From Trypanosoma brucei (lineage: Eukaryota), in assembly GCA_000002445.1 (NCBI GenBank), contig CP000068.1, positions 96,001 to 160,000 on the forward strand: a stretch of DNA of 64,000 nucleotides, written 5' to 3'. Below the pieces are notes generated by a model. It worked only from the letters and a program-made list of their open reading frames with translations, was not told the origin of the DNA and made no database searches. The first letter of the stretch is position 1, and every line of letters begins with the position of its first letter. Positions 3,117 through 53,850 of the stretch are shown here, piece after piece. The translations under genes were made by a program, and so were the position numbers.

Positions 3117-6100
3117 ATGGTTCGTTTTGTGAAATCGCATCCTTTTGGGCGAAAGAATAGCCAAGGTTGTTTACTTACCAGTGAAGGGTTAGTTATACGT
3201 GGTGTATGTGCTCATTTACTTTTATCGATCGTTTTTTGTTGTTGTTCGTTCGTTTTAATTTGTTGATTTCATTTCTAAGGGAATGTTGTTTTGCGAGGTC
3301 CAACCACAATTATGGTTACTATGCTTTTTAAATAAAGTTATCGGGGTACGCATACATACATACATGTGCGTGCGTGTGCAAAAATGGTCCTTCCCTTGGG
3401 GAAAATATCACAGGGCGCATCAGCTTCCTACGAAGGGAGGGGCACCGTCCTCGCAGGCGCGTGATTTGGGTACTATGCTTGGTTTAAGGGGGAAGATATG
3501 TGAAAGCGCGCTTGTACATATGTCTGTATGTTTAACAGCTCAGCGGAGGTCAGGAGGGAGGTTGTTGGTTGCCTTTTAAACGTAACGATAGGAAATGAAA
3601 TGCAAGGCGCACCACCCATGGGCACGGAACTCACATTCAGCAGGTTTCTTCCGACCTCCGTGTTTGTTGTCTTGTGCGCGCATGATTCCTGCAATCATAT
3701 GCGCACGGTGCCCACATTTCTGTCAGAACTGTCTTGTGACTTTCTCACACCCTATACGTCGCAGGTGTGTCCCATTAAGTGAAGTTTCTTTTATATATTT
3801 TTTTTTTTTTAAAAAGCTAAAAGTACGTTGAGATGGCAGTTACCCTCATGTATCGGCAGCAAATGCCTCAGATGTCGACGGCCACCATCACCGCGGCCAC
3901 TGAGGGAGGCATTATCGGCTACGGCACCCATCAGAGCCAAGACGGAGATATGTGTGACCACCTCTGGGGTCCCTGAAGCTCTGAAAAGCGGGAAATAAAG
4001 GGCCTCCATGGGCTGAAGGGTGACAATCGCCTCAATTTTGAGTTGCAGCAACTGTACAGAAATATCACAGTGCCGCGGGCGTCTGTCGGAAGCCAAGCGA
4101 AGGACGGTGACAAGGGCCCACAAATGGGGAAACGGTGGCGCCCACTCCCGTGTTTATGCCAAAAACAGCGACAGCAGCAGCAGCAACTGTAGCGCTGTTA
4201 TCGCTGACGAGTGGCGGACGTAACGAAAGTTACCTTTCACTTTAACAAGGGTGAAGGCGATTCATTAGAGCTTAGCTGCCGGTTTTGAACACGAGGAAAA
4301 TGTGTAGTTGGACCGACTGAACGGGTAAAGGGGCGACTGCGCTGTGTTAAGCACCTGAGGACCATTGTCTGTTTAAGGGCGTGGAGCCGTGTTCGGGAGC
4401 GCCGGGTGTGGCTATCTTAGTGGGAGTTTTCAAAAAAAAAAAAAAGAGCGTTGGTCTTGTGAAGATAGCGGGCCATGTAGAGTGCGACTTGAACGGCGAG
4501 CGCGGTGGGGAAATAGGTAGCAACTGCAAACCACGCGCGGAGCCACGTTTTGCGCCCTGTGGACCCGCCTACAATTAAGGCAGTAGCGAACGGACACGCG
4601 GAGTTACGCCTGGCACGCAAATGAGTTGTGCGGCACAAGCCTCATGAGCTGAAGCGGCGCCCCACAGAAAGAAAATGGGAGCTGAAGGAACGAGAAGTGA
4701 CCGCACCGGCGCGCAACGGAACTGCTTGAGGCACCGGTGGAGAATTCCCTTTTCAGACATTACCCCCGCGGGTTTTGCTGTGGAGGTGGAAGCGAGACGC
4801 TATTCAAAGAGGGCCGCTGCCGCCATCGGCTGCAGCACCCCCTCGTCCGTATTGAAAATGGGAACGGTGGAATCGTTTCCCAAAATGGGGTGAGCAAACT
4901 CAAGTAATTTCTTTTGTGCACCACGGCTAAAAAAAAAATGTGGGAATAGCGCAGCTTGCGTTCTGCAGACGAAGCCTCGGTAGAATTCGCCTTTGCCGCT
5001 ACACTCGGAACACGCCCAACGTAGCGGCTAGAAAGGATAGGCCGGGGTGCAATTCACCTCTTGTCTCGTTGCAAACGCAAATTTTATGCATCCACCGAAC
5101 GATTTTGCCATCTGCCAGAGTTGAGAAGGCAGCAGGCCCCCGTCCCTTCCTCGACTAAGCAAACATAAGGGCAGTATGGAATGTTACCCCTCTTGTGACG
5201 CGTTGGGACTGGCAATTCCATAAATTCCTTTTTCCCTCACCACACGAAGTAGTTCGCAACTTTTGGACCAGTAGGGTGTAATGCATTTGGGCCGCTTCCG
5301 CACCATGGATATTCGGGAAGCGCAGCTATGAACAGTTTTGCTGCGGCGCAAGTGCGGATGTCCCTCTTTAACGACGCACGACCCCAACCCACCATAAATA
5401 TCAAAACCCCGTCGATCGACAACCCCAAAGTTCTCAACATTAGGTATGAGCAACTTCCCTCAATCACCGAACGCGACAGCATCACGAGATGGAAACGTTT
5501 CGTTGTGGCACGTCTCCTTCCTTTTTGACAATTACCAAGCAACCAAACGGCCAAATGCAAGGGATAAACCGGCGACGGTTGTTGAGTGTGTCTGCCGTTA
5601 TTGTTGTTATCTTTTTTGTTCCGACCTTGCACTGAATTGAGTTGTGTGGCAAAGCTCCCTCCGGCACTCTCCTGCACATTTGCGGCTCCTAAGACTTAGA
5701 AGCCCCATTAAGGGAAGGGGAAAACTCCAGAGACTGTTCAGTGGAAATGAAGGCGCTCCTCTTCCTTTCATCGAGGTGTGATTGAGGAAAATATTGGTTT
5801 CAGGAGTTATAACTTTCTGGTGGGTTTAAAAACTGCACCATTTTCCCAGTGATGTCAATGCTACACTTTCCAGAGAGTATCAACTCCCGCCCCATCTAAA
5901 GGAGAAAAGAAAAAAGAAGGGCACAAGCGCCTCCGTTGCGTTTGTGATGGTGTGTAAAATTCCAGGGGCCCATTTTATTAACTCATGTGGAGTCGATTCA
6001 AATTCAATAGTTCCCCATTTTCGCTAAGGCATCGGAGCCCTACCCGAATATTCTCAGGCAATTTCACTTGGGAGAGGAATGACTTTAGATCAAACAATTC

Positions 6101-8474
6101 CACCGACTGGTCATGGAGAGTATTTAAATACTGGGAAAAGTGACCCAATGGGAAATATGCCTCATAATCATCCCTGCTCTTTTTAGCCTTTGGTCATGCA
6201 ATAAACCAACGCCCTCTTACAATTCTATGTTTCCTCAATCACAAAGAGTGGCACACAACCCATCCTGTCATATGTCTCTTTGAAACTGTGCTAATGATAC
6301 GCGGCTGCTTCATTATTTGGGCATCCTTTTCTACAATGGGCAATTCAGATTTCCCTGTTTGATACTTTCTCTCTTTCCACATCATCTGTGCTATTCATAA
6401 TGCTCCAAACCTCATCAAATCGCTTACTCGCTGCTTGCATCATCCTCTGTCGTATCCACGAAAAGGAAATCATTCTCACATTCATTTCCTATTGGAGAGG
6501 TGAAGTCTTTTCCTCATCCCGTGAGGTCACCTTTGTTTTCCCTTGTGAGTGTCAAGGAATGCTGTGCCATCGATAATTTGGAAAGGTATTCCCTGTTATA
6601 AATCTCGTCTTCCCTCACACTGAGGCTGCACATTCCTCCCAATTGTATCTTACATCAAAGACAACAAAAAGAATCGACTTGCTTACGGAAGCTGTCACAC
6701 ATCTGAGATACCACACTGTGCTTCGTTGGAGTTCCATTGTGTAGATGTGCTTTCCCAATTGTATTAATAATATGTTGTCAATGTCGTGCTTCCATTGCAA
6801 CTACTGCCGCTGCGCGTGTCAGAAGTGATCTTCTCTTTATGGGATGTTCTATCATTACGTATGGTCTTTTCAGTATGGTGTCATTTTCCGCTTTGTGGTA
6901 ATGGCTATGAACTTCTTCCCCTTTCCTCCAGAGGTTCCTCCCTATGACTTTTCTCACACTGGTAATATCCTTTTCCCAGTTGATAATTATGCATCGTGCG
7001 ACTCTGTGGGTATCGCTTTTGAATTTCTTTGGAAGGTTCCCTCCAAAAAAATTCCACTATTGAGGCTTGCTTTTCGTATGAGTGTGGTATAACATTTTCC
7101 TTTTTTGGGAGCTGTATAATTTCTTTTCCTCCAATGCTGGCTAATTCAGTCCATTGATATTGCAACTGGATACCACTCTGGACGGAGCTTCCCGCAAGAT
7201 ATTATCGAATCCCCATTACAACATGTGTTGTGTTTGTTTGATGGGTTCATCTGTTACCGCATTGTAAAGACGGACCCAAAAACAACATCCGCGTCGGTGT
7301 GTCCAATAGAAATGATGGAAGAGCTCTCCTGTACTGAAATGGCAATGCTTTTTGCGAGTCGTAAACTTACAACAACAAATAAAAGTGCAGTTACATCCTA
7401 TGCTGGCATGCGGTAACGATTTTCCGCCAATGCATAAAAACTCCACATGACGAATTCCCTATTGCCCACATGTTTTAGTCCTCAGTCACACTCACTTTGC
7501 TATTCTATTGGCTCCTAAAACCAATGCCATGATGTACGGATGGCTTTGTGTGTGGTAACTGCAATAATGATAATAATAACTCCTTTCACCAATGAGTATA
7601 TTTTTTGGTTGTAAAAGTGCTCTTGGTGTCACTCCATTTTTCTTTTTTTTAATCCTCAGCTACTGAGGGGCTGTTGTATTTTTTATTAAAGAGTGATGCA
7701 CCGTTTTATTCCCCATCCCTTTTAGGTGACTTCCTCCTGCACAGTTTTTAATTTTTCATTGTAGAATGTTTCTCAAGGTGTTTCCTTTGTGAAGCTTTGG
7801 TCATGCTATTATTAAAGACCACTCAACTCCCTGCTTTCGGGACCTGCTGTTGCATTTATTCCCCTTTAGTTGCTGCAAATTTGTTTATTTGACAAATTGT
7901 ACTGCAATACTTCACTTGAACATATGTGTAACAACGTGTCTCGTTGCTTTGTAAAAATTCAAAAAGAACACATCAGGTGATATTCTTCTGTTCCTACTTC
8001 GTACATTCACATCTCTTCCCGTCAGTTCGGAAACTCCCACACAAACTCACCACTCTGTGAAGATTTGTAGTTTCCGTTAGTGATGGACGTACTCAAGTGG
8101 ACATGTTTGGCGCCTAAAAACTTACTTTCGAAGTTTACACTTTCTTGCAGACAGCTTCAGTCCGAGAGCAAAATGATAGTTAAACATCAACACAAAACGT
8201 AAATCCAAACTCCCATTGACGAGAGCCTTTAAAATAAATACAAAAATGTTCACCCTGCACGTTACGCCCGAAAGTACCTTATAAAAATAACATTAAGCAA
8301 GCATCAACAATTTGAATGGAGCCACAAGGACAATTAATGGCGTATAATATTTCCACTAAACCTTGCGTGGAAACCGTTAAATTGCATCAAGCACCTAATT
8401 TCAATTCCAGTTCCAAAATCATACACACATGTATCTATGTCTGTTCCTTCGTGTTCGGGCACCTGTGATAGTGT
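3117..8474. terminator. convergent strand-switch region between the + gene at 1653-3116 and the - ISG75 array. Putative Pol II termination zone.
   Basis: Gene orientation converges here. No credible ORFs. Contains the 390 bp dispersed element and GC-rich non-coding islands. Confidence 0.45.
5568..5960 (-). repeat. dispersed element of about 390 bp, copy 1, inside the left convergent strand-switch region
   Basis: Reverse complement of 31920-32310 at about 95% identity, read directly (for example …GGCGACGGTTGTTGAGTGTGTCTGCCGTTATTGTTGTTATC… and …GGGAAGGGGAAAACTCCAGAGACTGTTCAG…). Confidence 0.8.
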
Positions 8475-10043
8475 TTAAATATCACTGTCGAAACCTGCTG
8501 CGGTCTTCGTATTTTTGCTTTTAGCATTAGCCTCCTCTATGTTTATATCATCCTTCACCTCAGCCTTCCTACGGCCCCTAATAACAAAGAACACAAGCAA
8601 CCCAAGCAACAGCAAAAGCAAAGGAATTAAAAATATTAACACTTTCGTTGTCCCAATCCAGCCACTCTTGGCCTCGCTGCCCTCATCATCATGGTCAGCG
8701 TTTACGTCGTCCTCTTCACCACTTTCTTTCGACTCCTCTTTCAATTCCTCAGCCAATTTTTCTACATCCTTCTTCAGTTTCTCTTCAGATTCCTCGGCGC
8801 CCTCCTTGTCCCACCGCGCAACTTCTGCATCTTCGGTGGCTTTGACGCGCTCCTCCTCCGCTTCCTCAAATGCCTTTCTCGAATCTTTCACCTGCTTTTC
8901 TGCAGCCTTTTCAGTTGCCTCAGCTTCCTCAACAGCCTCCAGCAACATCTTTTTCTTTTCTTCACTCACCGGCTGACCCGCCTCCTTTGCCTTCTCAGCC
9001 TTCTCAGCTTCCAAGCGCCTGGCCTCCGCCTGTTCCTCAGCAGCCACTCGTCTCGCCTCAGCCTCCTCCAAAGCCTTTCTCGCTTCCTCAGCAGCCTTCT
9101 CAGCAGCCTGGCGTTTCGCCTCCTCCTCCGCCGCCCGCGCCTCTGCTGCTTTTTTCCATTCCAGATACTGTGCAAGAGACTCCCTTCCAATCTGTTGAAA
9201 TCTCTGAGCATAGTGAGTCACCCCCAAGGAATTGCGGACTAGAGTTTCAAGTTTGAGTATCGCATACCTTGCTGCATCGTAGTCCCACCGCCAACTTTCA
9301 AGCAGCGTGCATGGTTTATCGGAGGAGGACGCACTTCTTGACGAATGGCCGCTGCTGCACTCAACAGCATCCCTTGCATCAGCCTTGGGCTTTGCTCGAT
9401 TCCATGCCTCGACTGCCCCCTCCATGTTGGAGAAGGTCACATCAGTTTTTGCAGCCGGAATAGACTTGTACTCGCAATATATAACGTATGCGCGAGCGTC
9501 ATCATGTCCAAAATTTCGATGATAGTCATGTTTATACGCACTGGGATCGCAGTTTGCGTTAGCCATATGGTCAAACGAATCACGGATTGCTTCCTTGTTT
9601 ATACAGTGCCATTTTAGCAACTCCTTGAGAACTTTGCTCGAGTTCGCTGCAGCCCTCTTCGCCTTCTCCCATGCCTCCTCAACGCTCCTTTTCGTTCGGT
9701 TCGCTACACGTTGGACACCACGCATCTGATCCAACATCTTTTGTCCCAGCGCCGCCCTCATATCATCATGCTCTGACACTTTCTGAAAAATTTCTCTCGC
9801 GACCTTCAAATATTTCCAGGATTGCCTCTCTAGAAAGTCTGCTCTATCAGCAACACCGTCAAGCAACTTTTTCATGGTACACAGTGTCAACACAGCTTCA
9901 CCATCAAGTTTCCGCCCATTTATTGTTACATACTGCTTATATGCGACAGGTAAGTTGCTTGCCTTGGACACATCGAGCGCACATATGCCGCAGAGGAGAA
10001 ATACTGTTGCAGTAGTGCGTAATGTAACAGGCATCGTTGACAT
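8475..10043 (-). CDS. ISG75: invariant surface glycoprotein ISG75 family, copy A (subtype 1), 522 aa type-I membrane protein
   Basis: Signal peptide MSTMPVTLRTTATVFLLCGICALDV; ectodomain with conserved Cys and the motif FSNMEGAVEAWNRAKPK; EEA/KRQAAEKAAEEARK coiled coil; TM LIFLIPLLLLLLGLLVFFVI; short K-rich tail RGRRKAEVKDDINIEEANAKSKNTKTAAGFDSDI. Size matches the ISG75 of roughly 523 aa I recall. Near-identical over its C-terminal half to the five other copies in the window. Confidence 0.85.
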   Translation of the reverse strand: MSTMPVTLRTTATVFLLCGICALDVSKASNLPVAYKQYVTINGRKLDGEAVLTLCTMKKLLDGVADRADFLERQSWKYLKVAREIFQKVSEHDDMRAALGQKMLDQMRGVQRVANRTKRSVEEAWEKAKRAAANSSKVLKELLKWHCINKEAIRDSFDHMANANCDPSAYKHDYHRNFGHDDARAYVIYCEYKSIPAAKTDVTFSNMEGAVEAWNRAKPKADARDAVECSSGHSSRSASSSDKPCTLLESWRWDYDAARYAILKLETLVRNSLGVTHYAQRFQQIGRESLAQYLEWKKAAEARAAEEEAKRQAAEKAAEEARKALEEAEARRVAAEEQAEARRLEAEKAEKAKEAGQPVSEEKKKMLLEAVEEAEATEKAAEKQVKDSRKAFEEAEEERVKATEDAEVARWDKEGAEESEEKLKKDVEKLAEELKEESKESGEEDDVNADHDDEGSEAKSGWIGTTKVLIFLIPLLLLLLGLLVFFVIRGRRKAEVKDDINIEEANAKSKNTKTAAGFDSDI

Positions 10044-10633
10044 CCGTTAAAACTTATCTGTCACCCTCCTCTGATCACCACTTCCTCAGCTTGTCAGTCT
10101 CAACCTCACGTTACCTTGGCCGTAGAAATATGCAATCAACTACAGTCAAATATCCAAGAGAAAATAAGAAAGGGAAGGGAATCGATAGAAACGACCAAAG
10201 AGTAAAAATATGCGCGATTGAGCAAAGGAAATAATATGCGTATCCAATAGCGGATTTGTTGCAGTTCACCCGAACATGGACAACCTCCACGGCAGTCTTT
10301 CATTACACCCTTCATAGTAGCGCAAGGAATGTATGAATACCCTTAACACATGAAATAAGCAATACGTATGAAAAAAGGCATCAGCACTGGTATCCGCAGC
10401 TACCAATGCGGCCCTACCTCAAACCGGTAGTATGTGGGAAAAGGGTAATAACCTTGAGATGAGCTGCAAGGAACTGGTCAGACCGAAACATTACAAGCAA
10501 CGGTATAAAAAGCAAGAAACGAAAACATATAAAAAGCACCCTTATATCACTTATAGCAACCGATTTCAATTCCAAAATCATACACACAAATGCCTATACC
10601 TGTTCCTTCGTGTTCGGGCACCTGTGATAGTGT

Positions 10634-12205
10634 TTAAATATCACTGTCAAGACCTGCTGCGGTCTTCGTATTTTTGCTTTTAGCATTAGCTTCCCCTATG
10701 TTTATATCATCCTTCACCTCAGCCTTCCTACGGCCCCTAATAACAAAGAACACAAGCAACCCAAGCAACAGCAAAAGCAAAGGAATTAAAAATATTAACA
10801 CTTTCGTTGTCCCAATCCAGCCACTTTTGGCCTCGCTGCCCTCATCATCATGGTCAGCATTTACGTCGTCCCCTTCACCACTTTCTTTCGACTCCTCTTT
10901 CAATTCCTCAGCCAATTTTTCTACATCCTTCTTCAGTTTCTCTTCAGATTCCTCGGCGTCCTTCTTTTCCTCTTTTGCAGCCTCTGCATCTTCGGTGGCT
11001 TTGACGCGCTCCTCCTCCGCTTCCTCAAATGCCTTTCTCGAATCTTTTGCCTGCTTTTCTGCGGCCTTTTCAGTTGCCTCAGCTTCCTCAACAGCCTCCA
11101 GCAACATCTTTTTCTTTTCTTCACTCACCGGCTGACCCGCCTCCTTTGCCTTCTCAGCCTTCTCAGCTTCCAAGCGCCTGGCCTCCGCCTGTTCCTCAGC
11201 GGCCACTCGTCTCGCCTCAGCCTCCTCCAAAGCCTTTCTCGCTTCCTCAGCAGCCTTCTCAGCAGCCTGGCGTTTCGCCTCCTCCTCCGCCGCCCGCGCC
11301 TCTGCTGCTTTCCTTCTCTCCTCATGCTGTGCAAGAGACTCTTTGTAACCCTCTAGCACTTTCTTAGAGTAGTGAAAAACCCTTAAAGCTAGGGTCGCAT
11401 CCTTCTCGACCTTCGATATTAAATGTGCCGTTACTCTGTAGTTCCAAAGCCAGTTCTCCAGCACTGTGCATGGTCGTCCAGCGGGAGCTGCTTGGTGAGC
11501 GGGTGCGCCTGCTCCACATATCATAACACGAGCGGAGTACGGTTTGGGTTTTACCTGGTTCCATATTTCGAGTGCCCTCTCCATGTTGGAGAACGTCGTT
11601 TGTGTAATGACGCTGTCCACTACTTTGTAGTTGCATAAAATGCTGTATTTATGGGGATCAAGCCTCGAATGTTCATAGTAGTAGTCTCGCTTGTACGCGT
11701 TGGGTAAGCAGTTCTCATTTCGACCGTAGCCAGGAAGGACGTCATGACTCGCCGTCCTGTCAACACAATGCCACGTCAGCACTTGGTCGAGAGCTGCACT
11801 TGCATTTGCCGCCGCTGCCTTAGCCCGCTCTCCTGTGCCCCCCATGTACTTGATTATGCCATTGCCCAGCGATTTCATGTACTGTATTTCCCGAAGCTTA
11901 TTTGAAGGGAATGATAACTCCATTCCCTTGTCATCCGATATTTTACGAAAATTCGCATTCGCATTGTTGACATACATATACGCCTGCTGTTCAAACATGT
12001 CAACCCTGGAGTTCACGCCGTCAAGCATCTTCTTCATTTCGCACAGTGTCGTAGCCCCTTGTCCATCAAGTTGCCGAGCACCTGCTGTTACATATTGTTT
12101 TTGTGCAACAGAGAGCTCCTCCGCCCAAGTCACATCGAGCGCACATATGCCGCAGAGGAGAAATACTGTTGCAGTAGTGCGTAATGTAACAGGCATCGTT
12201 GACAT
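10634..12205 (-). CDS. ISG75: ISG75 family, copy B (subtype 2), 523 aa
   Basis: Same signal peptide, coiled coil, TM and tail as copy A. The ectodomain is of a second type (DVTWAEELSVAQKQYV..., ALEIWNQVKPKP, PCTVLENWLWNY). One tandem unit of about 2.16 kb. Confidence 0.85.
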   Translation of the reverse strand: MSTMPVTLRTTATVFLLCGICALDVTWAEELSVAQKQYVTAGARQLDGQGATTLCEMKKMLDGVNSRVDMFEQQAYMYVNNANANFRKISDDKGMELSFPSNKLREIQYMKSLGNGIIKYMGGTGERAKAAAANASAALDQVLTWHCVDRTASHDVLPGYGRNENCLPNAYKRDYYYEHSRLDPHKYSILCNYKVVDSVITQTTFSNMERALEIWNQVKPKPYSARVMICGAGAPAHQAAPAGRPCTVLENWLWNYRVTAHLISKVEKDATLALRVFHYSKKVLEGYKESLAQHEERRKAAEARAAEEEAKRQAAEKAAEEARKALEEAEARRVAAEEQAEARRLEAEKAEKAKEAGQPVSEEKKKMLLEAVEEAEATEKAAEKQAKDSRKAFEEAEEERVKATEDAEAAKEEKKDAEESEEKLKKDVEKLAEELKEESKESGEGDDVNADHDDEGSEAKSGWIGTTKVLIFLIPLLLLLLGLLVFFVIRGRRKAEVKDDINIGEANAKSKNTKTAAGLDSDI

Positions 12206-12801
12206 CCGTTAAAACTTATCTGTCACCCTCCTCTGATCACCACTTCCTCAGCTTGTCAGTCTCAACCTCACGTTACCTTGGCCGTAGAAATATGCAATCA
12301 ACTACAGTCAAATATCCAAGAGAAAATAAGAAAGGGAAGGGAATCGATAGAAACGACCAAAGAGTAAAAATATGCGCAATTGAGCAAAGGAAATAATATG
12401 CGTATCCAATAGCGGATTTGTTGCAGTTCACCCGAACATGGACAACCTCCACGGCAGTCTTTCATTACACCCTTCATAGTAGCGCAAGGAATGTATGAAT
12501 ACCCTTAACACATGAAATAAGCAATACGTATGAAAAAAGGCATCAGCACTGGTATCCGCAGCTACCAATGCGGCCCTACCTCAAACCGGTAGTATGTGGG
12601 AAAAGGGTAATAACCTTGAGATGAGCTGCAAGGAACTGGTCAGACCGAAACATTACAAGCAACGGTATAAAAAGCAAGAAACGAAAACATATAAAAAGCA
12701 CCCTTATATCACTTATAGCAACCGATTTCAATTCCAGTTCCAAAATCATACACACAAATGCCTATGTCTGTTCCTTCGTGTTCGGGCACAAGAGAAGGTG
12801 G

Positions 12802-14373: not shown

Positions 14374-14902
14374 CCGTTAAAACTTATCTGTCACCCTCCT
14401 CTGATCACCACTTCCTCAGCTTGTCAGTCTCAACCTCACGTTACCTTGGCCGTAGAAATATGCAATCAACTACAGTCAAATATCCAAGAGAAAATAAGAA
14501 AGGGAAGGGAATCGATAGAAACGACCAAAGAGTAAAAATATGCGCGATTGAGCAAAGGAAATAATATGCGTATCCAATAGCGGATTTGTTGCAGTTCACC
14601 CGAACATGGACAACCTCCACGGCGGTCTTTCATTACACCCTTCATAGTAGCGCAAGGAATGTATGAATACCCTTAACACATGAAATAAGCAATACGTATG
14701 AAAAAAGGCATCAGCACTGGTATCCGCAGCTACCAATGCGGCCCTACCTCAAACCGGTAGTATGTGGGAAAAGGGTTGTAGTTGTAAAGTTTTCTGTAAA
14801 ATTCCTGAAATGTGACAAAAGATTGTGAAAAGACGAAACCGGCAGCAGATGGGGGAAGGGGGAAGGGAGCGGCGTTGTCAAGTGCGACGAAGATTTTTTA
14901 CG

Positions 14903-16561: not shown

Positions 16562-17215
16562 TGGAAACCATCAAAACTTATCTGTCACCCTCCTCTGATC
16601 ACCACTTCCTCAGCTTGTCAGTCTCAACCCCACGTTACCTTGGCCGTAGAAATATGCAATCAACTACAGTCAAATATCCAAGAGAAAATAAGAAAGGGAA
16701 GGGAATCGATAGAAACGACCAAAGAGTAAAAATATGCGCGATTGAGCAAAGGAAATAATATGCGTATCCAATAGCGGATTTGTTGCAGTTCACCCGAACA
16801 TGGACAACCTCCACGGCAGTCTTTCATTACACCCCTCGTAGTAGCTGCAAACCTCGGCATGCTATGAGCCATCCGGCCACCGCAGCTCCCCTTGGTGATG
16901 GTGTTGAGTGCGTTGAGCTAAAGTGCCTTTACAAATAAAGGCCAAAGTGACCATTTCAGAAGATAGCACAAGGCCTGTCAAATCATAAAAAAGAGCAGGA
17001 GCACGGGAAATGGCTGCTGAGAAAAAAGACAAAGAGGTGTATAGATAAAAGGGGGAAGCAGCTAGATGGTGGAACGCTTTACGACTGTGGCAGCCGCAAG
17101 GGTGCAGCAAAGTCTATGATGTTTGAAAAACGGTTGCGGCACATACCACGAAGCATCAACAACAGTGCTGGGTGGCGAAACACAAAGTGACAGAGTCGCT
17201 CGCGGTTTACTGTAT

Positions 17216-17238
17216 CACACACACACACACACACACAC
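17216..17238. repeat. (CA)11 microsatellite
   Basis: Read directly from the sequence. Confidence 0.95.
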
Positions 17239-20200: not shown

Positions 20201-20391
20201 CGTCGTCCCCACCGCCCTTCACGCACGATAAGCAATGTTACGTCCCGCACCATCCTGTAAGAAAATTACGGAAGAAGAATCCAACTCCCTTTTAAGGCGT
20301 AGAACTCCGAAACGATCAGCCTTCAATGAGAGTAGAAGCCTCCACCACGCACGCCTGCACTGAAGTCGACATCTCGGCAGCGAAGAGCCGC

Positions 20392-20392
<1 letters not shown>

Positions 20393-20447
<55 letters not shown>
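20393..20447. repeat. compound microsatellite (CA)14(TA)13 in the divergent strand-switch region
   Basis: Read directly from the sequence. Confidence 0.95.
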
Positions 20448-25423: not shown

Positions 25424-26992
25424 ATGTCAACGATGCCTGTTACATTACGCACTACTGCAACAGTATTTCTCCTCTGCGGCATATGTGCGCTCGATGTGAC
25501 TCTGGCCGCAGACCTTCCACTTACAAGTAGGCAGTTCGTAACAAACGGACGTATGCTTGACGGGCGGGGTGCTTTGACACTGTGCGAAATGAAGAAGACG
25601 CTTGACGGTGTGAACTCCAGGGTTGACACATTTGAACAACAAATCCTTACGTTCGTCAACAATGCGAATGCGAATTTTCGTAAAATATCGGATGACAAGG
25701 TAATGGCAGCATCGCTCTCCGCGAGCAGGCTACAGGAAATGCAGTACATGAAATCGCTGGGCAATAGCATAATCAAGTACATGGGGGGCACAGGAGAGCG
25801 GGCTAAGGCAGCGGCGGCAAATGCAAGCGCAGCTCTCGACCAAGTGCTGACGTGGCATTGTGTTGACAGGACGGCGAGTCACGAGTCCTCATACAGTTCT
25901 ACTCCAAATGCAAATTGTGAACCTAACGCGTATAAGCGAGACTACTACTATGAACATTCGAGGCTTGATCCCCATAAATACAGCATTTTATGCAACTACA
26001 AAGTGGTCAGTAGTACCACTACTCAAACGACGTTCTCCAACATGGAGAGGGCACTCGAAATATGGAACCAGGTAAAACCCAAACCGTACTCCGCTCGTGT
26101 TATGATATGTGGAGCAGGCGCACCCGCTCACCAAGCAGCTCCCGCTGGACGACCATGCACAGTGCTGGAGAACTGGGTGCGAGACTACAGAGTAACGGCA
26201 CATTTGATAGCAAAGCTCGAGAAGGATGCGACCCTAGCTCTAAGGGTTATGCGCTACTCTGAGAAAGTGCTAGAGGGTGACAAAGAGTCTCTTGCACAGC
26301 ATGAGGAGAGAAGGAAAGCAGCAGAGGCGCGGGCGGCGGAGGAGGAGGCGAAACGCCAGGCTGCTGAGAAGGCTGCTGAGGAAGCGAGAAAGGCTTTGGA
26401 GGAGGCTGAGGCGAGACGAGTGGCCGCTGAGGAACAGGCGGAGGCCAGGCGCTTGGAAGCTGAGAAGGCTGAGAAGGCAAAGGAGGCGGGTCAGCCGGTG
26501 AGTGAAGAAAAGAAAAAGATGTTGCTGGAGGCTGTTGAGGAAGCTGAGGCAACTGAAAAGGCTGCAGAAAAGCAGGCAAAAGATTCGAGAAAGGCATTTG
26601 AGGAAGCGGAGGAGGAGCGCGTCAAAGCCACCGAAGATGCAGAGGCTGCAAAAGAGGAAAAGGAGGACGCCGGACGGTCCGAAGAGGAACTGAAGAAGAG
26701 TCTCGAAAAATTGGCGGAGGAATTGAAAGAGGAGTCGAAAGAAAGTGGTGAAGAGGACGACGTAAATGCTGACCATGATGATGAGGGCAGCGAGGCCAAA
26801 AGTGGCTGGATTGGGACAACGAAAGTGTTAATATTTTTAATTCCTTTGCTTTTGCTGTTGCTTGGGTTGCTTGTGTTCTTTGTTATTAGGGGCCGTAGGA
26901 AGGCTGAGGTGAAGGATGATATAAACATAGAGGAAGGCGGTGCTAAAAGCAAAAATACGAAGACAGCAGCAGGTCTTGACAGTGATATTTAA
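25424..26992 (+). CDS. ISG75: ISG75 family, copy E (subtype 2, mosaic of the B-type and C-type ectodomains), 522 aa
   Basis: Same domain organisation. The ectodomain mixes B-like segments (SLGNSIIKYMGGTGERAKAAAANASAALDQVLTWHCVDRTASH) and C-like segments (ESSYSSTPNANCEPNAYKR, KVMAASLS). Lies on the opposite strand from copies A-D. Confidence 0.85.
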   Translation: MSTMPVTLRTTATVFLLCGICALDVTLAADLPLTSRQFVTNGRMLDGRGALTLCEMKKTLDGVNSRVDTFEQQILTFVNNANANFRKISDDKVMAASLSASRLQEMQYMKSLGNSIIKYMGGTGERAKAAAANASAALDQVLTWHCVDRTASHESSYSSTPNANCEPNAYKRDYYYEHSRLDPHKYSILCNYKVVSSTTTQTTFSNMERALEIWNQVKPKPYSARVMICGAGAPAHQAAPAGRPCTVLENWVRDYRVTAHLIAKLEKDATLALRVMRYSEKVLEGDKESLAQHEERRKAAEARAAEEEAKRQAAEKAAEEARKALEEAEARRVAAEEQAEARRLEAEKAEKAKEAGQPVSEEKKKMLLEAVEEAEATEKAAEKQAKDSRKAFEEAEEERVKATEDAEAAKEEKEDAGRSEEELKKSLEKLAEELKEESKESGEEDDVNADHDDEGSEAKSGWIGTTKVLIFLIPLLLLLLGLLVFFVIRGRRKAEVKDDINIEEGGAKSKNTKTAAGLDSDI

Positions 26993-27444
26993 CCACCTTC
27001 TCTTGTGCCCGAACACGAAGGTACAGATATAGGCATTTGTGTGTATGATTTTGGAATTGAAATCGGTTGCTATAAGTGATATAAGGGTGCTTTTTATATG
27101 TTTTCGTTTCTTGCTTTTTATACCGTTGCTTGTAATGTTTCGGTCTGACCAGTTCCTTGCAGCTCATCTCAAGGTTATTACCCTTTTCCCACATACTACC
27201 GGTTTGAGGTAGGGCCGCATTGGTAGCTGCGGATACCAGTGCTGATGCCTTTTTTCATACGTATTGCTTATTTCATGTGTTAAGGGTATTCATACATTCC
27301 TTGCGCTACTATGAAGGGTGTAATGAAAGACTGCCGTGGAGGTTGTCCATGTTCGGGTGAACTGCAACAAATCCGCTATTGGATACGCATATTATTTCCT
27401 TTGCTCAATCGCGCATATTTTTACTCTTTGGTCGTTTCTATCGA

Positions 27445-27486
27445 TTCCCTTCCCTTTCTTATTTTCTCTTGGATATTTGACTGTAG
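27445..27486 (+). promoter_or_regulatory. polypyrimidine tract plus first downstream AG: predicted spliced-leader trans-splice acceptor for ISG75 copy F. The same motif lies upstream of every ISG75 unit, for example 25286-25327 (+) and 10156-10182 (- strand).
   Basis: TTCCCTTCCCTTTCTTATTTTCTCTT followed by ...GACTGTAG about 100 nt upstream of the ATG. This matches the kinetoplastid poly-Y/AG processing signal. Confidence 0.55.
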
Positions 27487-27582
27487 TTGATTGCATATTT
27501 CTACGGCCAAGGTAACGTGAGGTTGAGACTGACAAGCTGAGGAAGTGGTGATCAGAGGAGGGTGACAGATAAGTTTTAACGG

Positions 27583-29151
27583 ATGTCAACGATGCCTGTT
27601 ACATTACGCACTACTGCAACAGTATTTCTCCTCTGCGGCATATGTGCGCTCGATGTGTCCAAGGCAAGCAACTTACCTGTCGCATATAAGCAGTATGTAA
27701 CAATAAATGGGCGGAAACTTGACGGGCGGGGTGCTTTGACACTGTGTACCATGAAAAAGTTGCTTGACGGTGTTGCTGATAGAGCAGACTTTCTAGAGAG
27801 GCAATCCTGGAAATATTTGAAGACAGTGCAGGAAATTTTTCAGAAAGTGTCAGAGCATGATGATATGAAGGCGGCCCTTGGCGAAAAGAAGCTGCAGGAA
27901 ATGCATAATGTAATGGCCATATCAGCAACCACTGGAACGTACGTTGGTGAAGCGTGGGGAAAGGCGAAGAGGGCTGCAGCGAACTCGAGCAAAGTTCTCA
28001 AGGAGTTGCTAAAATGGCACTGTATAAACAAGGAAGCAATCCGTGATTCGTTTGACCATATGGCTAACGCAAACTGCGATCCCAGTGCGTATAAACATGA
28101 CTATCATCGAAATTTTGGACATGATGACGCTCGCGCATACGTTATATATTGCGAGTACAAGTCTATTCCGGCTGCAAAAACTGATGTGACCTTCTCCAAC
28201 ATGGAGGGGGCAGTCGAGGCATGGAATCGAGCAAAGCCCAAGGCTGATGCAAGGGATGCTGTTGAGTGCAGCAGCGGCCATTCGTCAAGAAGTGCGTCCT
28301 CCTCCGATAAACCATGCACGCTGCTTGAAAGTTGGCGGTGGGACTACGACTTGGCAGCACATTGCATTGAAAAACTTGAAAGATACACCAGAAATGCATT
28401 ACAAACAGTTCATTACGCTCAAAAATTCCTACATAAAGGAAAGGAGTCTCTTGCACAGTATCTGGAATGGAAAAAAGCAGCAGAGGCGCGGGCGGCGGAG
28501 GAGGAGGCGAAACGCCAGGCTGCTGAGAAGGCTGCTGAGGAAGCGAGAAAGGCTTTGGAGGAGGCTGAGGCGAGACGAGTGGCTGCTGAGGAACAGGCGG
28601 AGGCCAGGCGCTTGGAAGCTGAGAAGGCTGAGAAGGCAAAGGAGGCGGGTCAGCCGGTGAGTGAAGAAAAGAAAAAGATGTTGCTGGAGGCTGTTGAGGA
28701 AGCTGAGGCAACTGAAAAGGCTGCAGAAAAGCAGGTGAAAGATTCGAGAAAGGCATTTGAGGAAGCGGAGGAGGAGCGCGTCAAAGCCACCGAAGATGCA
28801 GAAGTTGCGCGGTGGGACAAGGAGGGCGCCGAGGAATCTGAAGAGGAACTGAAGAAGGATGTAGAAAAATTGGCTGAGGAATTGAAAGAGGAGTCGAAAG
28901 AAAGTGGTGAAGAGGACGACGTAAACGCTGACCATGATGATGAGGGCAGCGAGGCCAAGAGTGGCTGGATTGGGACAACGAAAGTGTTAATATTTTTAAT
29001 TCCTTTGCTTTTGCTGTTGCTTGGGTTGCTTGTGTTCTTTGTTATTAGGGGCCGTAGGAAGGCTGAGGTGAAGGATGATATAAACATAGAGGAGGCTAAT
29101 GCTAAAAGCAAAAATACGAAGACCGCAGCAGGTTTCGACAGTGATATTTAA
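27583..29151 (+). CDS. ISG75: ISG75 family, copy F (subtype 1, closest to copy A), 522 aa
   Basis: N-terminus DVSKASNLPVAYKQYVTINGRKLDG and tail ...EEANAKSKNTKTAAGFDSDI as in copy A. Patchwise differences in the mid-ectodomain. Its 3' flank (29152-29379) is the reverse complement of copy A's 3' flank (8248-8474). Confidence 0.85.
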   Translation: MSTMPVTLRTTATVFLLCGICALDVSKASNLPVAYKQYVTINGRKLDGRGALTLCTMKKLLDGVADRADFLERQSWKYLKTVQEIFQKVSEHDDMKAALGEKKLQEMHNVMAISATTGTYVGEAWGKAKRAAANSSKVLKELLKWHCINKEAIRDSFDHMANANCDPSAYKHDYHRNFGHDDARAYVIYCEYKSIPAAKTDVTFSNMEGAVEAWNRAKPKADARDAVECSSGHSSRSASSSDKPCTLLESWRWDYDLAAHCIEKLERYTRNALQTVHYAQKFLHKGKESLAQYLEWKKAAEARAAEEEAKRQAAEKAAEEARKALEEAEARRVAAEEQAEARRLEAEKAEKAKEAGQPVSEEKKKMLLEAVEEAEATEKAAEKQVKDSRKAFEEAEEERVKATEDAEVARWDKEGAEESEEELKKDVEKLAEELKEESKESGEEDDVNADHDDEGSEAKSGWIGTTKVLIFLIPLLLLLLGLLVFFVIRGRRKAEVKDDINIEEANAKSKNTKTAAGFDSDI

Positions 29152-29379
29152 ACACTATCACAGGTGCCCGAACACGAAGGAACAGACATAGGCATTTGTG
29201 TGTATGATTTTGGAACTGGAATTGAAATTAGGTGCTTGATGCAATTTAACGGTTTCCACGCAAGGTTTAGTGGAAATATTATACGCCATTAATTGTCCTT
29301 GTGGCTCCATTCAAATTGTTGATGCTTGCTTAATGTTATTTTTATAAGGTACTTTCGGGTGTAACGGTGCAGGGTGAAC

Positions 29380-32300
29380 GTTCCTTTTGGCGTTAGTTAA
29401 CTGTTCCGCCCATCCCCTCTTTTTGCTCTTCACCCTTTTTCTGTTGCTTGTGTGAATTGTTTGTGGTTACCGCAGGGAATTATTACCTTCTTTTATTGAG
29501 AGTGGTGGTTCAATGTTTGGAAAGGGACGGTTACTACTGTACGCACTTGCAATGCTGTTGTTGTTTGCTTCCTGACGTGTACGAAGGAAGGGAAGTTAGA
29601 GTTTTATGGGTAGCTTAGCTTGAGGGCGCGTGCATGCGTAAAGCTGCTTAATTTTATTCGTGTACTTTTATAAAGATGTGTATTGGTGAGGTACGTGCAA
29701 ACACGCAGTTGGCTGACTGAGTTGAATCAACTGCAATTGCATGTGTTTGGCCGGTGAGGCGCAGCACGTAAAGGGCAATAGGGACGATTAAAATGACTTG
29801 AGTACATTTGTTGGGGGTCGGTTAACAAGATGGTAACTACAGGAAAGAGCGTTTGGACGGAGTTGAATGTTCGCTTTGATGGTTCGTTATTGCTGATATT
29901 CTCCTTCAGTCCCCCGTAAGAACATTAATGGGCTAGACATATAGGGAGACAAGTATAATTGCGGATCCATGCGAATACGTAAGTACTTGCTGAATTGAGA
30001 GGGTATTGGTAAACGAATAAGTTGTGCGGCATCGTACCACCTTCATGGTTACCGCTGGTGCAGGCCGTTTCGACACTCTTTAAGGAATCAGCAACGATAT
30101 GCATTGGAGGAACGGGGTAACATGTGAATGTGAATGTGAATGAAGGAAATTGTGAGGAGCAGTTGGGTCAAACGCACGCAAATGAGGCGCCTTGAAGCGC
30201 CAAAATAAACGTTCCGCGGGGCGGATGGCCCTTTTGATGACGGTCGGAAAAGGAAAGGGATGCCCCTGGGCCCATTCCATACCCCACAAGTGCACAAGTG
30301 AGTTTGCGCTGACCGACGCCGGTGGGTTCAGTGCCTGCCGAAACCCCTGCAGCCAACCACGGCACTGAGGAAGATATTGGCAAATCGCATTTGTTGGCGT
30401 AGCCGCTGAACTCCGTGTGGTGTGGAAACCCCGATGCTTTTGCTATTGTAATTACCGCGCGGTCTCAACAGCTGGCGCATAATTGTGGGAGGGCAGGTGG
30501 CATCAGTACTGTCGCCCGCCTAAGGGCGTAGCTTGCCAACACTTAATGTGTGACGGGGGGAAATGGTGTGCATTTGGATCCCCGTAAACGAGGAAGATAA
30601 CCAAAGGCTGGGAATATGTTTCAAATGCCATTGTTAAGGCGACTTCACTCGAATGGAAGCGAGGCGACATGTGTGGGTTTAGGCGCATGAAAGGAACAAA
30701 AGAGGCGCCACCATCCGGGCGCTTGAGAGACGTAGAGAAGACGCGGGTGTTATTTGCCTCTCGAACTGTTTGGATGCCCAACGGAGTGGACGGGACGTCA
30801 TCGGTGAGACTTGATTATTTCAACGAAACCCTCCTTTACCATTGCTTGGAATTTAGTGCGAAGGCGTATGTTTTGTTCCCCGCGAATGCCGTCAAATAAA
30901 TGGGCGTATCTATTTATTTTTTTGGAGACCCCCGGGCAGCTGTTGGGGCTCAGATATCTGTGACAAAGCACACCACTAGCTGAGGAAGCAAAGAGCCCTT
31001 TGTATTACACCGTGCGAATGCGACAGAAACTGGGGGAATGTAACAATGCACTTTCGGTAGATGTACGACATTAATAGCGCCATTGGCGCGTCGCAGTTAG
31101 GAGGGGCACTGGGCAGGCAATGGAAGCGATAATTACAAACACGCGACACCATCGCATCTCAATTAAACGGCGAAATAAATGGATCAACTGATCGAATTTT
31201 GGGAAACCCACACAACGATAGCGCCATCACCACCGCACATCTATCGGGTTTGCATGTGGTTTGCAGTTCCCTCTTGTAGTGAACACACTGCATTTTCATT
31301 CGTATCGCATGCGCGAAGGAAGTTCACACACAACTCGGTGACGATTTTAAAATTGGGTTGCCTCGCCCCCTCCCTCTTCCCTCACCATCGCGACCCTTCG
31401 TCTTCCTTTTTATGCTCTTCAGAGGTTGCAATTGATGATGACAGTAAAGACACGCCTTGTCCCTTACCGAATCTCTCGTTCTCCACCTCCTGAGTTATTT
31501 TCGAAGGAACCATTCCCTGACGTGATTCTCTTCTGTTCCTAATTGGTGCTACTGAAGAAGGGTCGTTTGGTTTAGCCTTTCTATTATTCTTTTACGCAAG
31601 CTATTCCCCGCCTTGAAATTGAGTAAGGTTGCGTTTCGTTTCAGAGAGGGGAAGTAACCGCTGGCGCTGCGATGCGAGCTAACACACGTGGTACTCACAA
31701 GCTCCACTCTAAATTTAATGCATTCCATATTTTCTCCTGTAATGGTTCCTATACTCACCACCAGGGGATATCATACAAACTGAGCATAAACTTAATTGTT
31801 CCAGAACAAAACTACGAGCAACATTCGGGGATGTTAAATGTCCACTTCTCCGATACAAATGAGCGCTAGTCGTCATCAACGCCCCAACCCCATTAATGTT
31901 TGCCATTTTGTTCCACTTCACACACACACAAACGCAACGAAGGCGCTTGTGCCCTTCTTTTTTCTTTTCTCCTTTAGATGGGGCGGGAGTTGATACTCTC
32001 TGGAAAGTGTAGCATTGACATCACTGGGAAAATGGTGCAGTTTTTAAACCCACCAGAAAGTTATAACTCCTGAAACCAATATTTTCCTCAATCACACCTC
32101 GATGAAAGGAAGAGGAGCGCCTTCATTTCCGCTGAACAGTCTCTGGAGTTTTCCCCTTCCCTTAATGGGGCTTCTAAGTCTTAGGAGTCGCAAATGTGCA
32201 GGAGAGTGCCGGAGGGAGCTTTGCCACACAACTCAATTCAGTGCAAGGTCGGAACAAAAAAGATAACAACAATAACGGCAGACACACTCAACAACCGTCG

Positions 32301-33278
32301 CCGATTCGCCTGTGATAACGCACCACTTCACTGTTTCAACGAAAAGGCAGCAATCAATCACACAGCTGAGTATCCATCCATCCGCCGAAAAACACGCCGG
32401 CGTATATCTGCGTTTTTTTTTAAATGTACGTGCGGGATTCCCACCTACAAATGTATTGTGATGTGACGTGGTGGTGACTCTTGCACTACTAACCGATGAC
32501 AAACGCACAAAGCAGGTTGTTGAAAAGGCAGTGAAAAAACACATTTAACCCGCAACCATAATCCCGGTCTATGGATCAACAGCAAGTTATGTGACGGGGA
32601 ACAGTACAAGGCGTCAAATAAACATATATATATTAATGCAAGAACGAGTTAAGCAACGCAGCGAAAGTATGAGACAACCCCACACGTACACAAACACACA
32701 CACACACACACACAACTCGTGGCGGGGAAACCGTAATATTAGCGTTATTATTGCCGTTGGTGTCGATACACTCGCACGCATCCGAAGGCAAGACCGACTC
32801 GGACCTCCCTCTGTTGTGTGTTTGTCTTTTTCGTTTGTTTTCCGTTTTTTGTTGTAGCTTTTTACTTTGTACCAATCGGCTTCTTAGAAAGTCCACAAAT
32901 CAAGCATTCCCAATATTCCCCCTTCCCTTACACTCACCCATTAATAGCACACGGCTTACATACTGGGAAAGGAAAAGGAAGAAAAGTGCAAAACAAAAAA
33001 AAAGATTAAAAAATAATAGCAACTGTATTCCGATTGACGGAAGGGAGACGGAAGGGGGGGAGAAAAAAGCAACAAAGAGAGTGAAAAAAGTTAATCATGT
33101 CAGGTCCGTCTACCGGTTTGAAGCGGCTGGCGACCCCGACGCGGATACGAATATAGTTGATGTCGGAATATCGGTTTCATTGGCGGTGCAACATGCTTTC
33201 ACCTTTTTCTTGCATGGAGGGGGGGGAGGGATTATTTTCCTTTCCACATGTTGTGTTGTGTTGTGTTGTTGTTGTTTT
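29380..33278. terminator. convergent strand-switch region between the + ISG75 arm and the long - gene cluster. Putative Pol II termination zone.
   Basis: Gene orientation converges here. No credible ORFs; the 324 aa + ORF at 32751-33725 is antisense to a real gene and low-complexity. Contains the second copy of the 390 bp element. Confidence 0.45.
31920..32310 (+). repeat. dispersed element of about 390 bp, copy 2, inside the right convergent strand-switch region (inverted relative to copy 1)
   Basis: See 5568-5960. Its orientation matches that of the adjacent ISG75 arm on each side. Confidence 0.8.
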
Positions 33279-38297: not shown

Positions 38298-38432
38298 ACC
38301 TTTACTACTAGTTTCAACGACACACTAAGCCTGAAATGCAATAACCACAACACATCCACATTCATTTTTTTTATACGTACAAATACGTACAAATATATAA
38401 ACAAGGGGAAAACATTGTATAAAACAGTAATT

Positions 38433-46106: not shown

Positions 46107-46142
<36 letters not shown>

Positions 46143-53820: not shown

Positions 53821-53850
53821 TACCATTACACCTTTGTAGGAAATACTAAC

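What the first reader, a model, noticed from the sequence alone, without database searches (positions are those of the whole stretch)
5568..32310. The same 390 bp element sits in both convergent strand-switch regions that bound the ISG75 palindrome, in mirror orientation
5568-5960 and 31920-32310 are reverse complements of each other at about 95% identity. Each lies 2.3-2.5 kb beyond the outer ISG75 copy, oriented like its neighbouring ISG75 arm, while the intervening flanks are not homologous. A conserved non-coding element at both termination zones could be one of three things: a remnant of a larger ancestral palindrome; a dispersed boundary element or mobile-element fragment; or a functional site (terminator, nucleosome or base-J positioning, small RNA source). 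The only ORF over it (65 aa, MCRRVPEGALPHNSIQ…) is unconvincing.
Basis: seen in the sequence. Interest (0 to 1): 0.55.

Follow-up and report, generated by a model that had tools for sequence, protein, structure and literature searches.

The report
Outer homology block of ISG75 palindrome
A 388-bp non-coding sequence really does sit in mirror image at both ends of the Trypanosoma brucei ISG75 gene palindrome, and it is most likely the outermost surviving piece of that old inverted duplication, kept alike by gene conversion, not a new kind of boundary signal.

Summary
Window 5567-5954 and 31919-32306 are reverse complements: 388 nt, 7 mismatches, no gaps (98.2%), with no third copy in the 64 kb.

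The window is T. brucei TREU927 chromosome 5 (window p = v4 p+96000 = v5.1 p+153095). Both copies sit at the same places, with the same edges, in T. b. gambiense. The right copy is also present in T. b. equiperdum IVM-t1, and both are represented in T. equiperdum OVI contigs.

The terminal ISG75 genes of both arms also share a private ~160-nt 3' flank. The arms therefore read: ISG75, private flank, 2.3/2.5 kb of unrelated DNA, element. Sites where left and right agree within a subspecies but differ between subspecies show inter-arm gene conversion.

I found no coding, Rfam or RNA-fold signal, no retroposon hallmarks, and no extra conservation between subspecies.

Published maps add context. 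The left copy lies inside the trans-spliced, polyadenylated transcript Tb5.NT.9. The right copy lies inside CTU11, the most siRNA-rich convergent region reported.

Best reading: a gene-conversion island left over from a larger palindrome, transcribed passively. Genome-wide copy number could not be tested.

Unexplained extra: the left spacer is 8.3% diverged between subspecies, against about 1% around it.

The parts
5567..5954 (-). Left copy of the 388-nt element. It is oriented like the left ISG75 arm. Chromosome coordinates: v4 101567-101954, v5.1 158662-159049.
   Evidence: 98.2% reverse-complement match to 31919-32306. Coordinates, checked against splice AGs.
31919..32306 (+). Right copy of the element. 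It is oriented like the right ISG75 arm. Chromosome coordinates: v4 127919-128306. It lies 683 nt beyond the Tb927.5.410 poly(A) site (window 32989).
   Evidence: Poly(A) site from Kolev Table S13.
8245..8474 (-). 3' flank of the terminal left ISG75 copy (Tb927.5.350). Its distal ~160 nt are shared only with the other terminal copy, not with internal copies.
29152..29382 (+). Matching 3' flank of the terminal right ISG75 copy (Tb927.5.400).
5955..8244 (.). Left spacer X_L (2290 nt). It is unrelated to the right spacer and has no Pfam relic. It is 8.3% diverged between TREU927 and T. b. gambiense.
29383..31918 (.). Right spacer X_R (2536 nt). It is unique and has no Pfam relic. It is about 1.2% diverged between subspecies.
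4560..8143 (-). Published transcript Tb5.NT.9 (3583 nt, trans-spliced and polyadenylated, procyclic forms). It contains X_L and the whole left element.
   Evidence: Kolev 2010 Tables S7 and S12. The AG at 8145-8144 immediately before position 8143 was confirmed in the sequence.
8475..16561 (-). Left ISG75 array, Tb927.5.350 to .380.
25424..29151 (+). Right ISG75 array, Tb927.5.390 to .400.
27700..35000 (.). Published siRNA locus CTU11 (v4 123700-131000). It is the right convergent region and includes the right element.
   Evidence: Tschudi 2012 Additional file 3, with the coordinate mapping.

Best explanation
The element is the distal homology block of an old inverted duplication. Each arm ran from the ISG75 array, through the terminal copy's private 3' flank, out to and including this 388-bp stretch.

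The 2.3-2.5 kb between the flank and the element has since been replaced or has diverged beyond recognition. The flank and the element have stayed 97-98% alike because the two arms still exchange sequence by gene conversion.

The element does not code for protein, is not a structured RNA and is not a mobile element. It is transcribed passively at the tail of each ISG75 transcription unit. On the left it is part of the stable non-coding transcript Tb5.NT.9. On the right it lies in a zone of converging transcription that yields abundant DCL2-dependent siRNAs.

Shown here: the repeat itself, its shared edges across subspecies, the collinear arm architecture, the conversion signature, and the absence of coding or structural signals.

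Inferred: that the element belonged to the original duplication, and that it has no function of its own.
For: 1. Repeat and edges. The repeat is 388 nt at 98.2% with sharp edges. The same edges occur in T. b. gambiense (left and right), T. b. equiperdum IVM-t1 (right) and T. equiperdum OVI.

2. Shared array end. Terminal copies .350 and .400 share about 160 nt of 3' flank that internal copies lack, so the duplication included unique DNA beyond the array.

3. Mirror collinearity. The order is flank, then 2290 or 2536 nt, then the element.

4. Concerted evolution. In the flank, 3 sites have 927-left = 927-right but differ from gambiense-left = gambiense-right. Fixed left/right differences occur only in the last ~25 nt. 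In the element, one site shows the same pattern (window 5732), and there is no internal fixed left/right difference. By my rough estimate, parallel mutation would give such a site with probability below 0.01.

5. No extra constraint. Divergence between subspecies is 1.29% in the element and 1.0-1.2% in the unique flanks.

6. No function-specific signals. There is no protein match in six frames and no Rfam hit. Fold z-scores are -1.2 and +0.9.

7. Transcription. Tb5.NT.9 spans the left copy. CTU11 spans the right copy.
Against: The spacers X_L and X_R show no detectable homology. A simple large palindrome therefore needs a second event (replacement) or extreme divergence of exactly that part.

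The evidence for conversion within the element itself rests on a single site.

Genome-wide copy number was not measurable with the collections available, so a dispersed family is not excluded.

The coincidence with the strongest siRNA-producing convergent region could mean that the element matters at the RNA level.
Confidence: 0.6

Rival explanations
1. RNA-level function. Because the copies are inverted and each lies between converging transcription units, every locus can give both strands of the same 388-nt sequence. The element would then act as a shared double-stranded-RNA or siRNA module. For example, siRNAs from the right convergent region could target the Tb5.NT.9 transcript made on the left, coupling the two ends of the ISG75 locus.
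For: The right copy lies within CTU11, which has the highest read count of the 49 convergent units listed (33,373 reads, falling to 0.15% of wild type in dcl2-/-). The left copy is inside a stable transcript on the ISG75 strand. Strand logic follows directly from the inverted arrangement. General read-through and antisense transcription at convergent regions is documented (Tschudi discussion).
Against: It is not known whether any CTU11 reads map to the element rather than elsewhere in the 7.3-kb interval, which also includes the ISG75 .400 coding sequence and Tb927.5.410. In bloodstream Lister 427, both convergent regions appear with low small-RNA counts in Reynolds' S2 table (its columns are only partly labelled). 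There is no extra sequence conservation. Tschudi et al. found no mRNA effect of convergent-region siRNAs at the two loci they tested.
Confidence: 0.15
2. The element is a member of a dispersed repeat or a fragment of a mobile element (ingi, RIME, SIDER-like or another family), and it happens to have two copies here.
For: Its size (388 bp) and sharp edges are compatible with this. Short-read assemblies break at it (OVI contigs end inside the element), as happens for any repeat.
Against: There is no target-site duplication, no terminal A-run and no terminal inverted repeat (sequence). Six-frame translation matches nothing among 5.8 billion proteins, a set that includes trypanosome retroposon, RHS, VSG and ESAG products. 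There is no third copy in the 64-kb window. The fetched gambiense, IVM-t1 and OVI loci hold only the syntenic copies. Mirror-collinear placement beside the shared ISG75 flank is not expected for independent insertions.
Confidence: 0.1
3. The second copy is a later, independent event. It arose as a templated insertion (template switching during replication or repair, which often copies nearby sequence in inverted orientation) or as an ectopic conversion patch. It is not part of the original duplication.
For: The spacers are entirely unrelated. The inner edge falls in a TG-rich microsatellite-like tract in both copies, which is a plausible switching or breakage site.
Against: This requires a coincidence of orientation and of distance (2.29 versus 2.54 kb) from the terminal ISG75 flank. 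No clear junction microhomology is visible. Both copies were already present, with identical edges, before the brucei/gambiense split.
Confidence: 0.1
4. The element is a cis-acting DNA element of the termination zone, for example a site for base J or H3.V deposition, nucleosome positioning or replication.
For: It is located in two convergent regions. Both regions appear in Reynolds' table of convergent strand-switch regions. That paper reports H3.V and base J enrichment at RNAP II termination sites in general (abstract), but no locus-specific J or H3.V data were retrieved for these two regions.
Against: No such sequence-specific termination element is known in T. brucei. There is no excess conservation. 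The left copy is transcribed through by Tb5.NT.9, which ends about 1 kb further on, so at least in procyclic forms it does not stop polymerase.
Confidence: 0.05

Closest known systems
Long inverted repeats of T. brucei (IR1-IR7 of Tschudi et al. 2012, PMC3447711)
   Same: These are low-copy inverted repeats on megabase chromosomes with near-identical arms. The smallest is 422 bp. They are transcribed and associated with siRNAs. Those authors also suggested that their high identity is actively maintained.
   Different: This pair is 388 bp, 98.2% identical (theirs are 99-100%), and 26 kb apart with a whole gene palindrome between the arms (theirs lie within 3.6-12 kb). It is not in their list. 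siRNA production from the element itself is unproven.
Convergent transcription units as siRNA sources (CTU11 of Tschudi 2012; cSSR table of Reynolds 2016, PMC4721609)
   Same: Both copies lie between converging transcription units. The right region is the published CTU11.
   Different: Convergent-region siRNAs are explained by overlapping read-through and need no shared sequence element. No other pair of convergent regions is known to share a repeat.
Gene-conversion-maintained palindrome arms (e.g. primate Y-chromosome palindromes; concerted evolution of tandem or inverted gene families)
   Same: Arm-to-arm identity is higher than or equal to the identity between orthologues. Variants are shared within a genome but differ between lineages. 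Edges are sharp.
   Different: Here homology is broken into islands (ISG75 with its flank, and the element) separated by unrelated spacers. The comparison rests on general knowledge, not on a test made here.
End-of-unit non-coding transcripts of T. brucei (Kolev 2010 'NT' transcripts; later lncRNA catalogues)
   Same: The left copy is part of Tb5.NT.9, a trans-spliced, polyadenylated RNA with no convincing ORF that follows the last gene of a transcription unit.
   Different: The element makes up only about 11% of that transcript. No matching transcript is listed on the right.

Membership tests
ingi/RIME/SIDER-type retroposon fragment | Target-site duplication flanking the insert | tested here: not met
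   The flanks of both copies were read directly. There are no direct repeats at the edges.
ingi/RIME/SIDER-type retroposon fragment | 3'-terminal A-rich tail or 5' conserved retroposon signature | tested here: inconclusive
   There is an A-rich run about 45 nt inside one end but none at the terminus. No reference retroposon sequences were available for alignment. Six-frame translation gave no hit to any retroposon protein.
ingi/RIME/SIDER-type retroposon fragment | Many dispersed copies in the genome | not testable with these tools
   No T. brucei whole-genome DNA search was available. There are only 2 copies in the 64-kb window and only syntenic copies in the fetched loci. The metagenome scan was empty, which is uninformative.
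T. brucei long inverted repeat (Tschudi IR class) | Two inverted arms of at least ~400 bp at about 99-100% identity | tested here: inconclusive
   The arms are 388 nt at 98.2%, just under the published range of 422 bp to 10 kb at 99-100%.
T. brucei long inverted repeat (Tschudi IR class) | siRNAs mapping to the arms | not testable with these tools
   Only region totals are published. CTU11, which contains the right copy, has 33,373 reads. Per-base mapping is unavailable.
Convergent strand-switch region / CTU | Lies between two converging Pol II transcription units | tested here: met
   Gene orientations, Kolev Table S14 units, and poly(A) sites at window 3715 and 32989.
Structured non-coding RNA (snoRNA, miRNA-like and others) | Match to a covariance model, or a fold more stable than shuffles | tested here: not met
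   Rfam gave no hit in either region at gathering threshold or up to E = 5. Fold z-scores were -1.23 and +0.88.
Protein-coding gene | Conserved ORF with homologues | tested here: not met
   There were no homologues in any of six frames. The 65-aa and 90-aa ORFs differ beyond the element. A 1-nt deletion in the gambiense right copy shifts the frames, and site 5732 is a first-codon-position change in the 54-aa ORF.
Palindrome arm / segmental duplication under gene conversion | Collinear, mirror-oriented placement with other arm blocks | tested here: met
   The order is terminal ISG75, private flank, spacer, element in both arms.
Palindrome arm / segmental duplication under gene conversion | Paralogues share lineage-specific variants (concerted evolution) | tested here: met
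   Three such sites occur in the terminal flank and one in the element. Within-genome left/right difference is 3-4 core sites, against 5 between orthologues.
Palindrome arm / segmental duplication under gene conversion | Continuous homology along the arm | tested here: not met
   The 2.3/2.5-kb spacers are unrelated.

The most novel reading that the evidence does not exclude
The two mirror copies may form a trans-complementary RNA module that links the two termination zones of the ISG75 locus. Read-through from the ISG75 units and from the opposing units would yield both strands of the same 388 nt. These would feed the nuclear DCL2 pathway, explaining why this convergent region tops the siRNA list. 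The resulting siRNAs would act on the Tb5.NT.9 transcript or on local chromatin and termination.

A second unconventional possibility is that the element and the ISG75 flank serve as homology anchors for cassette-like exchange of the hypervariable spacer between them.
Probability: 0.12. Interest if true: 0.55.

Novelty: new member of a known kind. Interest (0 to 1): 0.33.

Why it matters
The ISG75 locus encodes the suramin-uptake receptor, so its stability and expression are of practical interest.

A gene-conversion island 26 kb from its partner shows that the ISG75 palindrome is larger and older than its coding arms suggest. It also shows that inter-arm recombination reaches into both termination zones. 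This adds a further substrate for inversion of the whole locus.

If the element also feeds the siRNA pathway, it would be the first case of two convergent regions sharing a sequence. That would offer a handle on why siRNA output differs so much among such regions.

As it stands, this is a tidy structural annotation rather than a new mechanism.

Tried and rejected
**Protein coding.** A six-frame composite of the element searched against 5.8 billion proteins gave nothing. The ORFs are short and differ between copies.

**Structured RNA.** Rfam was run at gathering threshold and up to E = 5, and both strands were folded. Nothing was found.

**Pseudogene or retroelement relics in the spacers.** Six-frame Pfam scans of X_L and X_R gave only a chance hit (SICA_beta, E = 0.099).

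**Hidden homology between spacers or with the rest of the window.** BLASTN at word sizes 7 and 9, and Smith-Waterman against shuffles, found none.

**More left-side samples.** A search with the ESAG5-related protein returned only the gambiense orthologue and a 40% paralogue. TREU927 itself is not in the position index.

**Splice-site use inside the element.** The strong polypyrimidine tract plus AG predicts a splice site at window 5895 or 31978. No entry was found in the stored parts of Kolev's tables. This is uninformative because the full site tables are not held.

**lncRNA catalogue.** The supplement of Guegan 2022 is not held.

**Metagenome scan.** A scan for a 39-mer of the element was empty, as expected.

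**OVI scaffold as evidence of inversion.** The T. equiperdum OVI scaffold joins the left copy to the right spacer. I rejected this as evidence of an inversion because the join crosses an N10 gap at a collapsed repeat.

**CTU11 as the left region.** I considered this and rejected it once the offset of 96000 was fixed by four independent splice or poly(A) sites.
Full report
**Identity of the window.** Exact protein look-ups place the window on chromosome 5 of T. brucei brucei TREU927 (Pfam; tRNA). The genes are:

| Gene | Window position | Strand |
|---|---|---|
| ESAG5-related Tb927.5.340 | 1653-3116 | + |
| ISG75 Tb927.5.350-.380 | 8475-16561 | - |
| ISG75 Tb927.5.390-.400 | 25424-29151 | + |
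| ISG-like Tb927.5.410-.430 | begins at 33279 | - |
| trans-sialidase Tb927.5.440 | 38963-41317 | - |
| tRNA-Arg | 42372-42444 | - |

Gene coordinates in the supplement of PMC9241505 give window p = Tb927_05_v5.1 p+153095. Splice and poly(A) sites in the supplements of Kolev 2010 (PMC2936537) give window p = Tb927_05_v4 p+96000. I checked the v4 offset against the sequence. An AG sits immediately before the mapped splice site of Tb927.5.340 (window 1571) and of Tb5.NT.9 (window 8143). The offset also reproduces the listed UTR lengths of .340.390.400 and .410.

**The observation.** Window 5567-5954 and 31919-32306 are reverse complements over 388 nt, with 7 mismatches and no gaps (98.2%). There is no third copy in the window. 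Neither the outer nor the inner flanks are related. Both sites lie between converging transcription units. Kolev's Table S14 lists .340 as a one-gene plus-strand unit.380-.350 as a minus-strand unit.390-.400 as a plus-strand unit and .600-.410 as a minus-strand unit.

**What the element is not.**
- A composite of all six reading frames found no protein among 5.8 billion.
- The ORFs over it are short and run into different sequence in the two copies.
- The 54-aa ORF that is identical in both copies owes this to two third-position differences, a roughly 1-in-9 chance event. In gambiense it carries a first-position change, and a terminal frameshift in one copy.
- Rfam finds nothing in either strand-switch region, even at E = 5.
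- Neither strand folds better than shuffles.
- There are no target-site duplications, terminal A-runs or terminal inverted repeats.
- On the ISG75 strand the element carries a strong polypyrimidine tract followed by AG (window about 5914-5896 and its mirror). I found no record that this site is used (uninformative).

**Arm architecture.** I aligned the 3' flanks of all six ISG75 genes. All share about 100 nt after the stop codon. Beyond that, the two terminal copies (.350 and .400) continue together for about 160 nt of sequence that the internal copies lack, up to 8245 and 29382. The inverted duplication therefore included the array end and unique DNA beyond it.

Homology then stops. It resumes 2290 nt (left) or 2536 nt (right) further out as the 388-nt element, in mirror orientation. 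The spacers X_L and X_R show no similarity by BLASTN or by Smith-Waterman against shuffles. They contain no Pfam-detectable relic.

**Comparative data.** I fetched four related regions:
- T. b. gambiense DAL972, left (L004) and right (L003) regions
- T. b. equiperdum IVM-t1, right region (L002)
- T. equiperdum OVI contigs (L001, L005)

Both copies are present in gambiense at the same positions and with the same edges. The right copy is present in IVM-t1.

Among the four high-quality sequences (927 left and right, gambiense left and right), no internal site separates left from right copies. The only fixed positional differences are at the inner edge. One site (window 5732) has G in both 927 copies and C in both gambiense copies. 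The terminal ISG75 flank shows the same picture more strongly. Three sites follow lineage (927 left = 927 right, differing from gambiense left = gambiense right). Positional differences are confined to the last ~25 nt before the homology ends.

Left/right differences within a genome (3-4 core sites) are no larger than differences between orthologues (5). This is the signature of inter-arm gene conversion after the subspecies split. High identity is therefore not evidence of recent origin or of selection. In line with this, divergence between 927 and gambiense is 1.29% in the element, compared with 1.0-1.2% in the adjacent unique sequence and in the Tb927.5.340 coding sequence. On the right, the whole region runs at about 1%.

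**Published functional maps.** Kolev et al. list a novel trans-spliced, polyadenylated transcript, Tb5.NT.9 (v4 104143 to 100560, minus strand, 3583 nt). In window coordinates this is 8143 to 4560. It begins about 100 nt beyond the shared ISG75 flank, covers X_L and the whole left element, and ends about 1 kb further on. Tb927.5.340 mRNA ends at window 3715, so the two stable RNAs do not overlap.

No counterpart transcript is listed on the right. There, Tb927.5.410 mRNA ends at 32989, which is 683 nt from the element.

Tschudi et al. (PMC3447711) list CTU11 at v4 123700-131000, which is window 27700-35000. This is the right convergent region. It has 33,373 AGO1-bound small RNAs, the highest count of their 49 convergent units, and these are almost abolished without DCL2. 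The left region is absent from their list, where number CTU10 is missing. Both regions appear in Reynolds' table of convergent strand-switch regions for bloodstream Lister 427, with low and nearly equal counts. None of these sources gives per-base data, so I cannot say whether siRNAs come from the element.

**Interpretation.** The most economical reading is that the element is the outermost surviving block of a larger, older inverted duplication. It has been kept near-identical by the same inter-arm gene conversion that homogenises the ISG75 arms, and it is transcribed passively at the tail of each ISG75 unit. The weak point of this reading is the unrelated spacer, which requires replacement or unusually fast divergence.

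The left spacer is in fact anomalous. It is 8.3% diverged between TREU927 and gambiense (190 substitutions in 2290 nt), starting within 6 nt of the element's inner edge and fading at the ISG75 flank, against about 1.1% everywhere else. The right spacer is ordinary. I have no tested explanation for this. Possibilities are deep allelic haplotypes bounded by the two recombining blocks, exchange with an unsampled paralogue, or local hypermutation.

**Rivals.** Four alternatives remain: an RNA-level role as a shared dsRNA or siRNA module, a dispersed repeat, an independent templated insertion, and a cis-acting termination or chromatin element. The available data disfavour them but do not eliminate them. 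The decisive whole-genome BLAST and read-level small-RNA mapping could not be run here.

**Verdict.** This is a real, well-defined feature that extends the known ISG75 palindrome and documents gene conversion across 26 kb. It belongs to known kinds (low-copy inverted repeats and conversion islands in T. brucei) rather than to a new class.

Noticed in passing
window 5955-8244: The left spacer between the element and the terminal ISG75 flank is 8.3% diverged between TREU927 and T. b. gambiense DAL972. Every neighbouring segment is 1.0-1.3% diverged. The change starts within 6 nt of the element's edge. The right spacer shows only about 1.2%. The transition/transversion count is 113/77, against 58/21 in the background.
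   Followed up: partly
window 8245-8368 and 29258-29382: The two terminal ISG75 copies share a private ~160-nt 3' flank that the internal copies lack. The terminal genes must therefore have 3' UTRs different from those of the other ISG75 genes.
   Followed up: partly
L001 12934-13031 (T. equiperdum OVI scaffold CZPT02000221.1): The scaffold joins the left element plus 66 nt of left spacer, across an N10 gap, to the last 22 nt of the right element and the right spacer in inverted orientation. This is most likely a mis-scaffold through the collapsed repeat, but a real inversion cannot be excluded. Contig L005 also ends 35 nt into the right element.
   Followed up: partly
window 16850-25225: The 8.4-kb centre of the palindrome has no repeat and no ORF over 122 aa. 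Published transcripts Tb5.NT.10 and NT.11 (minus strand, 16780-19151) and NT.12 (plus strand, 24014-25109) bracket the divergent start region. A Bdf3 peak maps to window 18881-19281.
   Followed up: partly
window 38432-38648 and 41490-41706: A perfect 217-nt direct repeat flanks the trans-sialidase gene Tb927.5.440.
   Followed up: no
window 42372-42444: tRNA-Arg(ACG) lies on the minus strand inside a Pol II transcription unit and within the published transcript Tb5.NT.13 (window 41554-43091).
   Followed up: no
window 46000-54000: An AT-rich stretch (GC 0.32-0.40, against about 0.46 elsewhere) surrounds the 580-aa ORF at 49422-51164.
   Followed up: no
L005 7934-7945 versus window 36529-38649: The OVI contig that carries a product identical to Tb927.5.410b lacks one of the two tandem ISG-like copies (.420/.430). 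This is a copy-number difference, not a deep divergence (98.5-99.4% identity otherwise).
   Followed up: no
Tschudi 2012 Additional file 3 (chromosome 5): The CTU numbering skips CTU10, and the left ISG75 convergent region (v4 about 99100-104500) is not listed. A chromosome-5 'TUD2' locus with 14,905 reads appears among the miscellaneous loci without coordinates. It might be this region.
   Followed up: no
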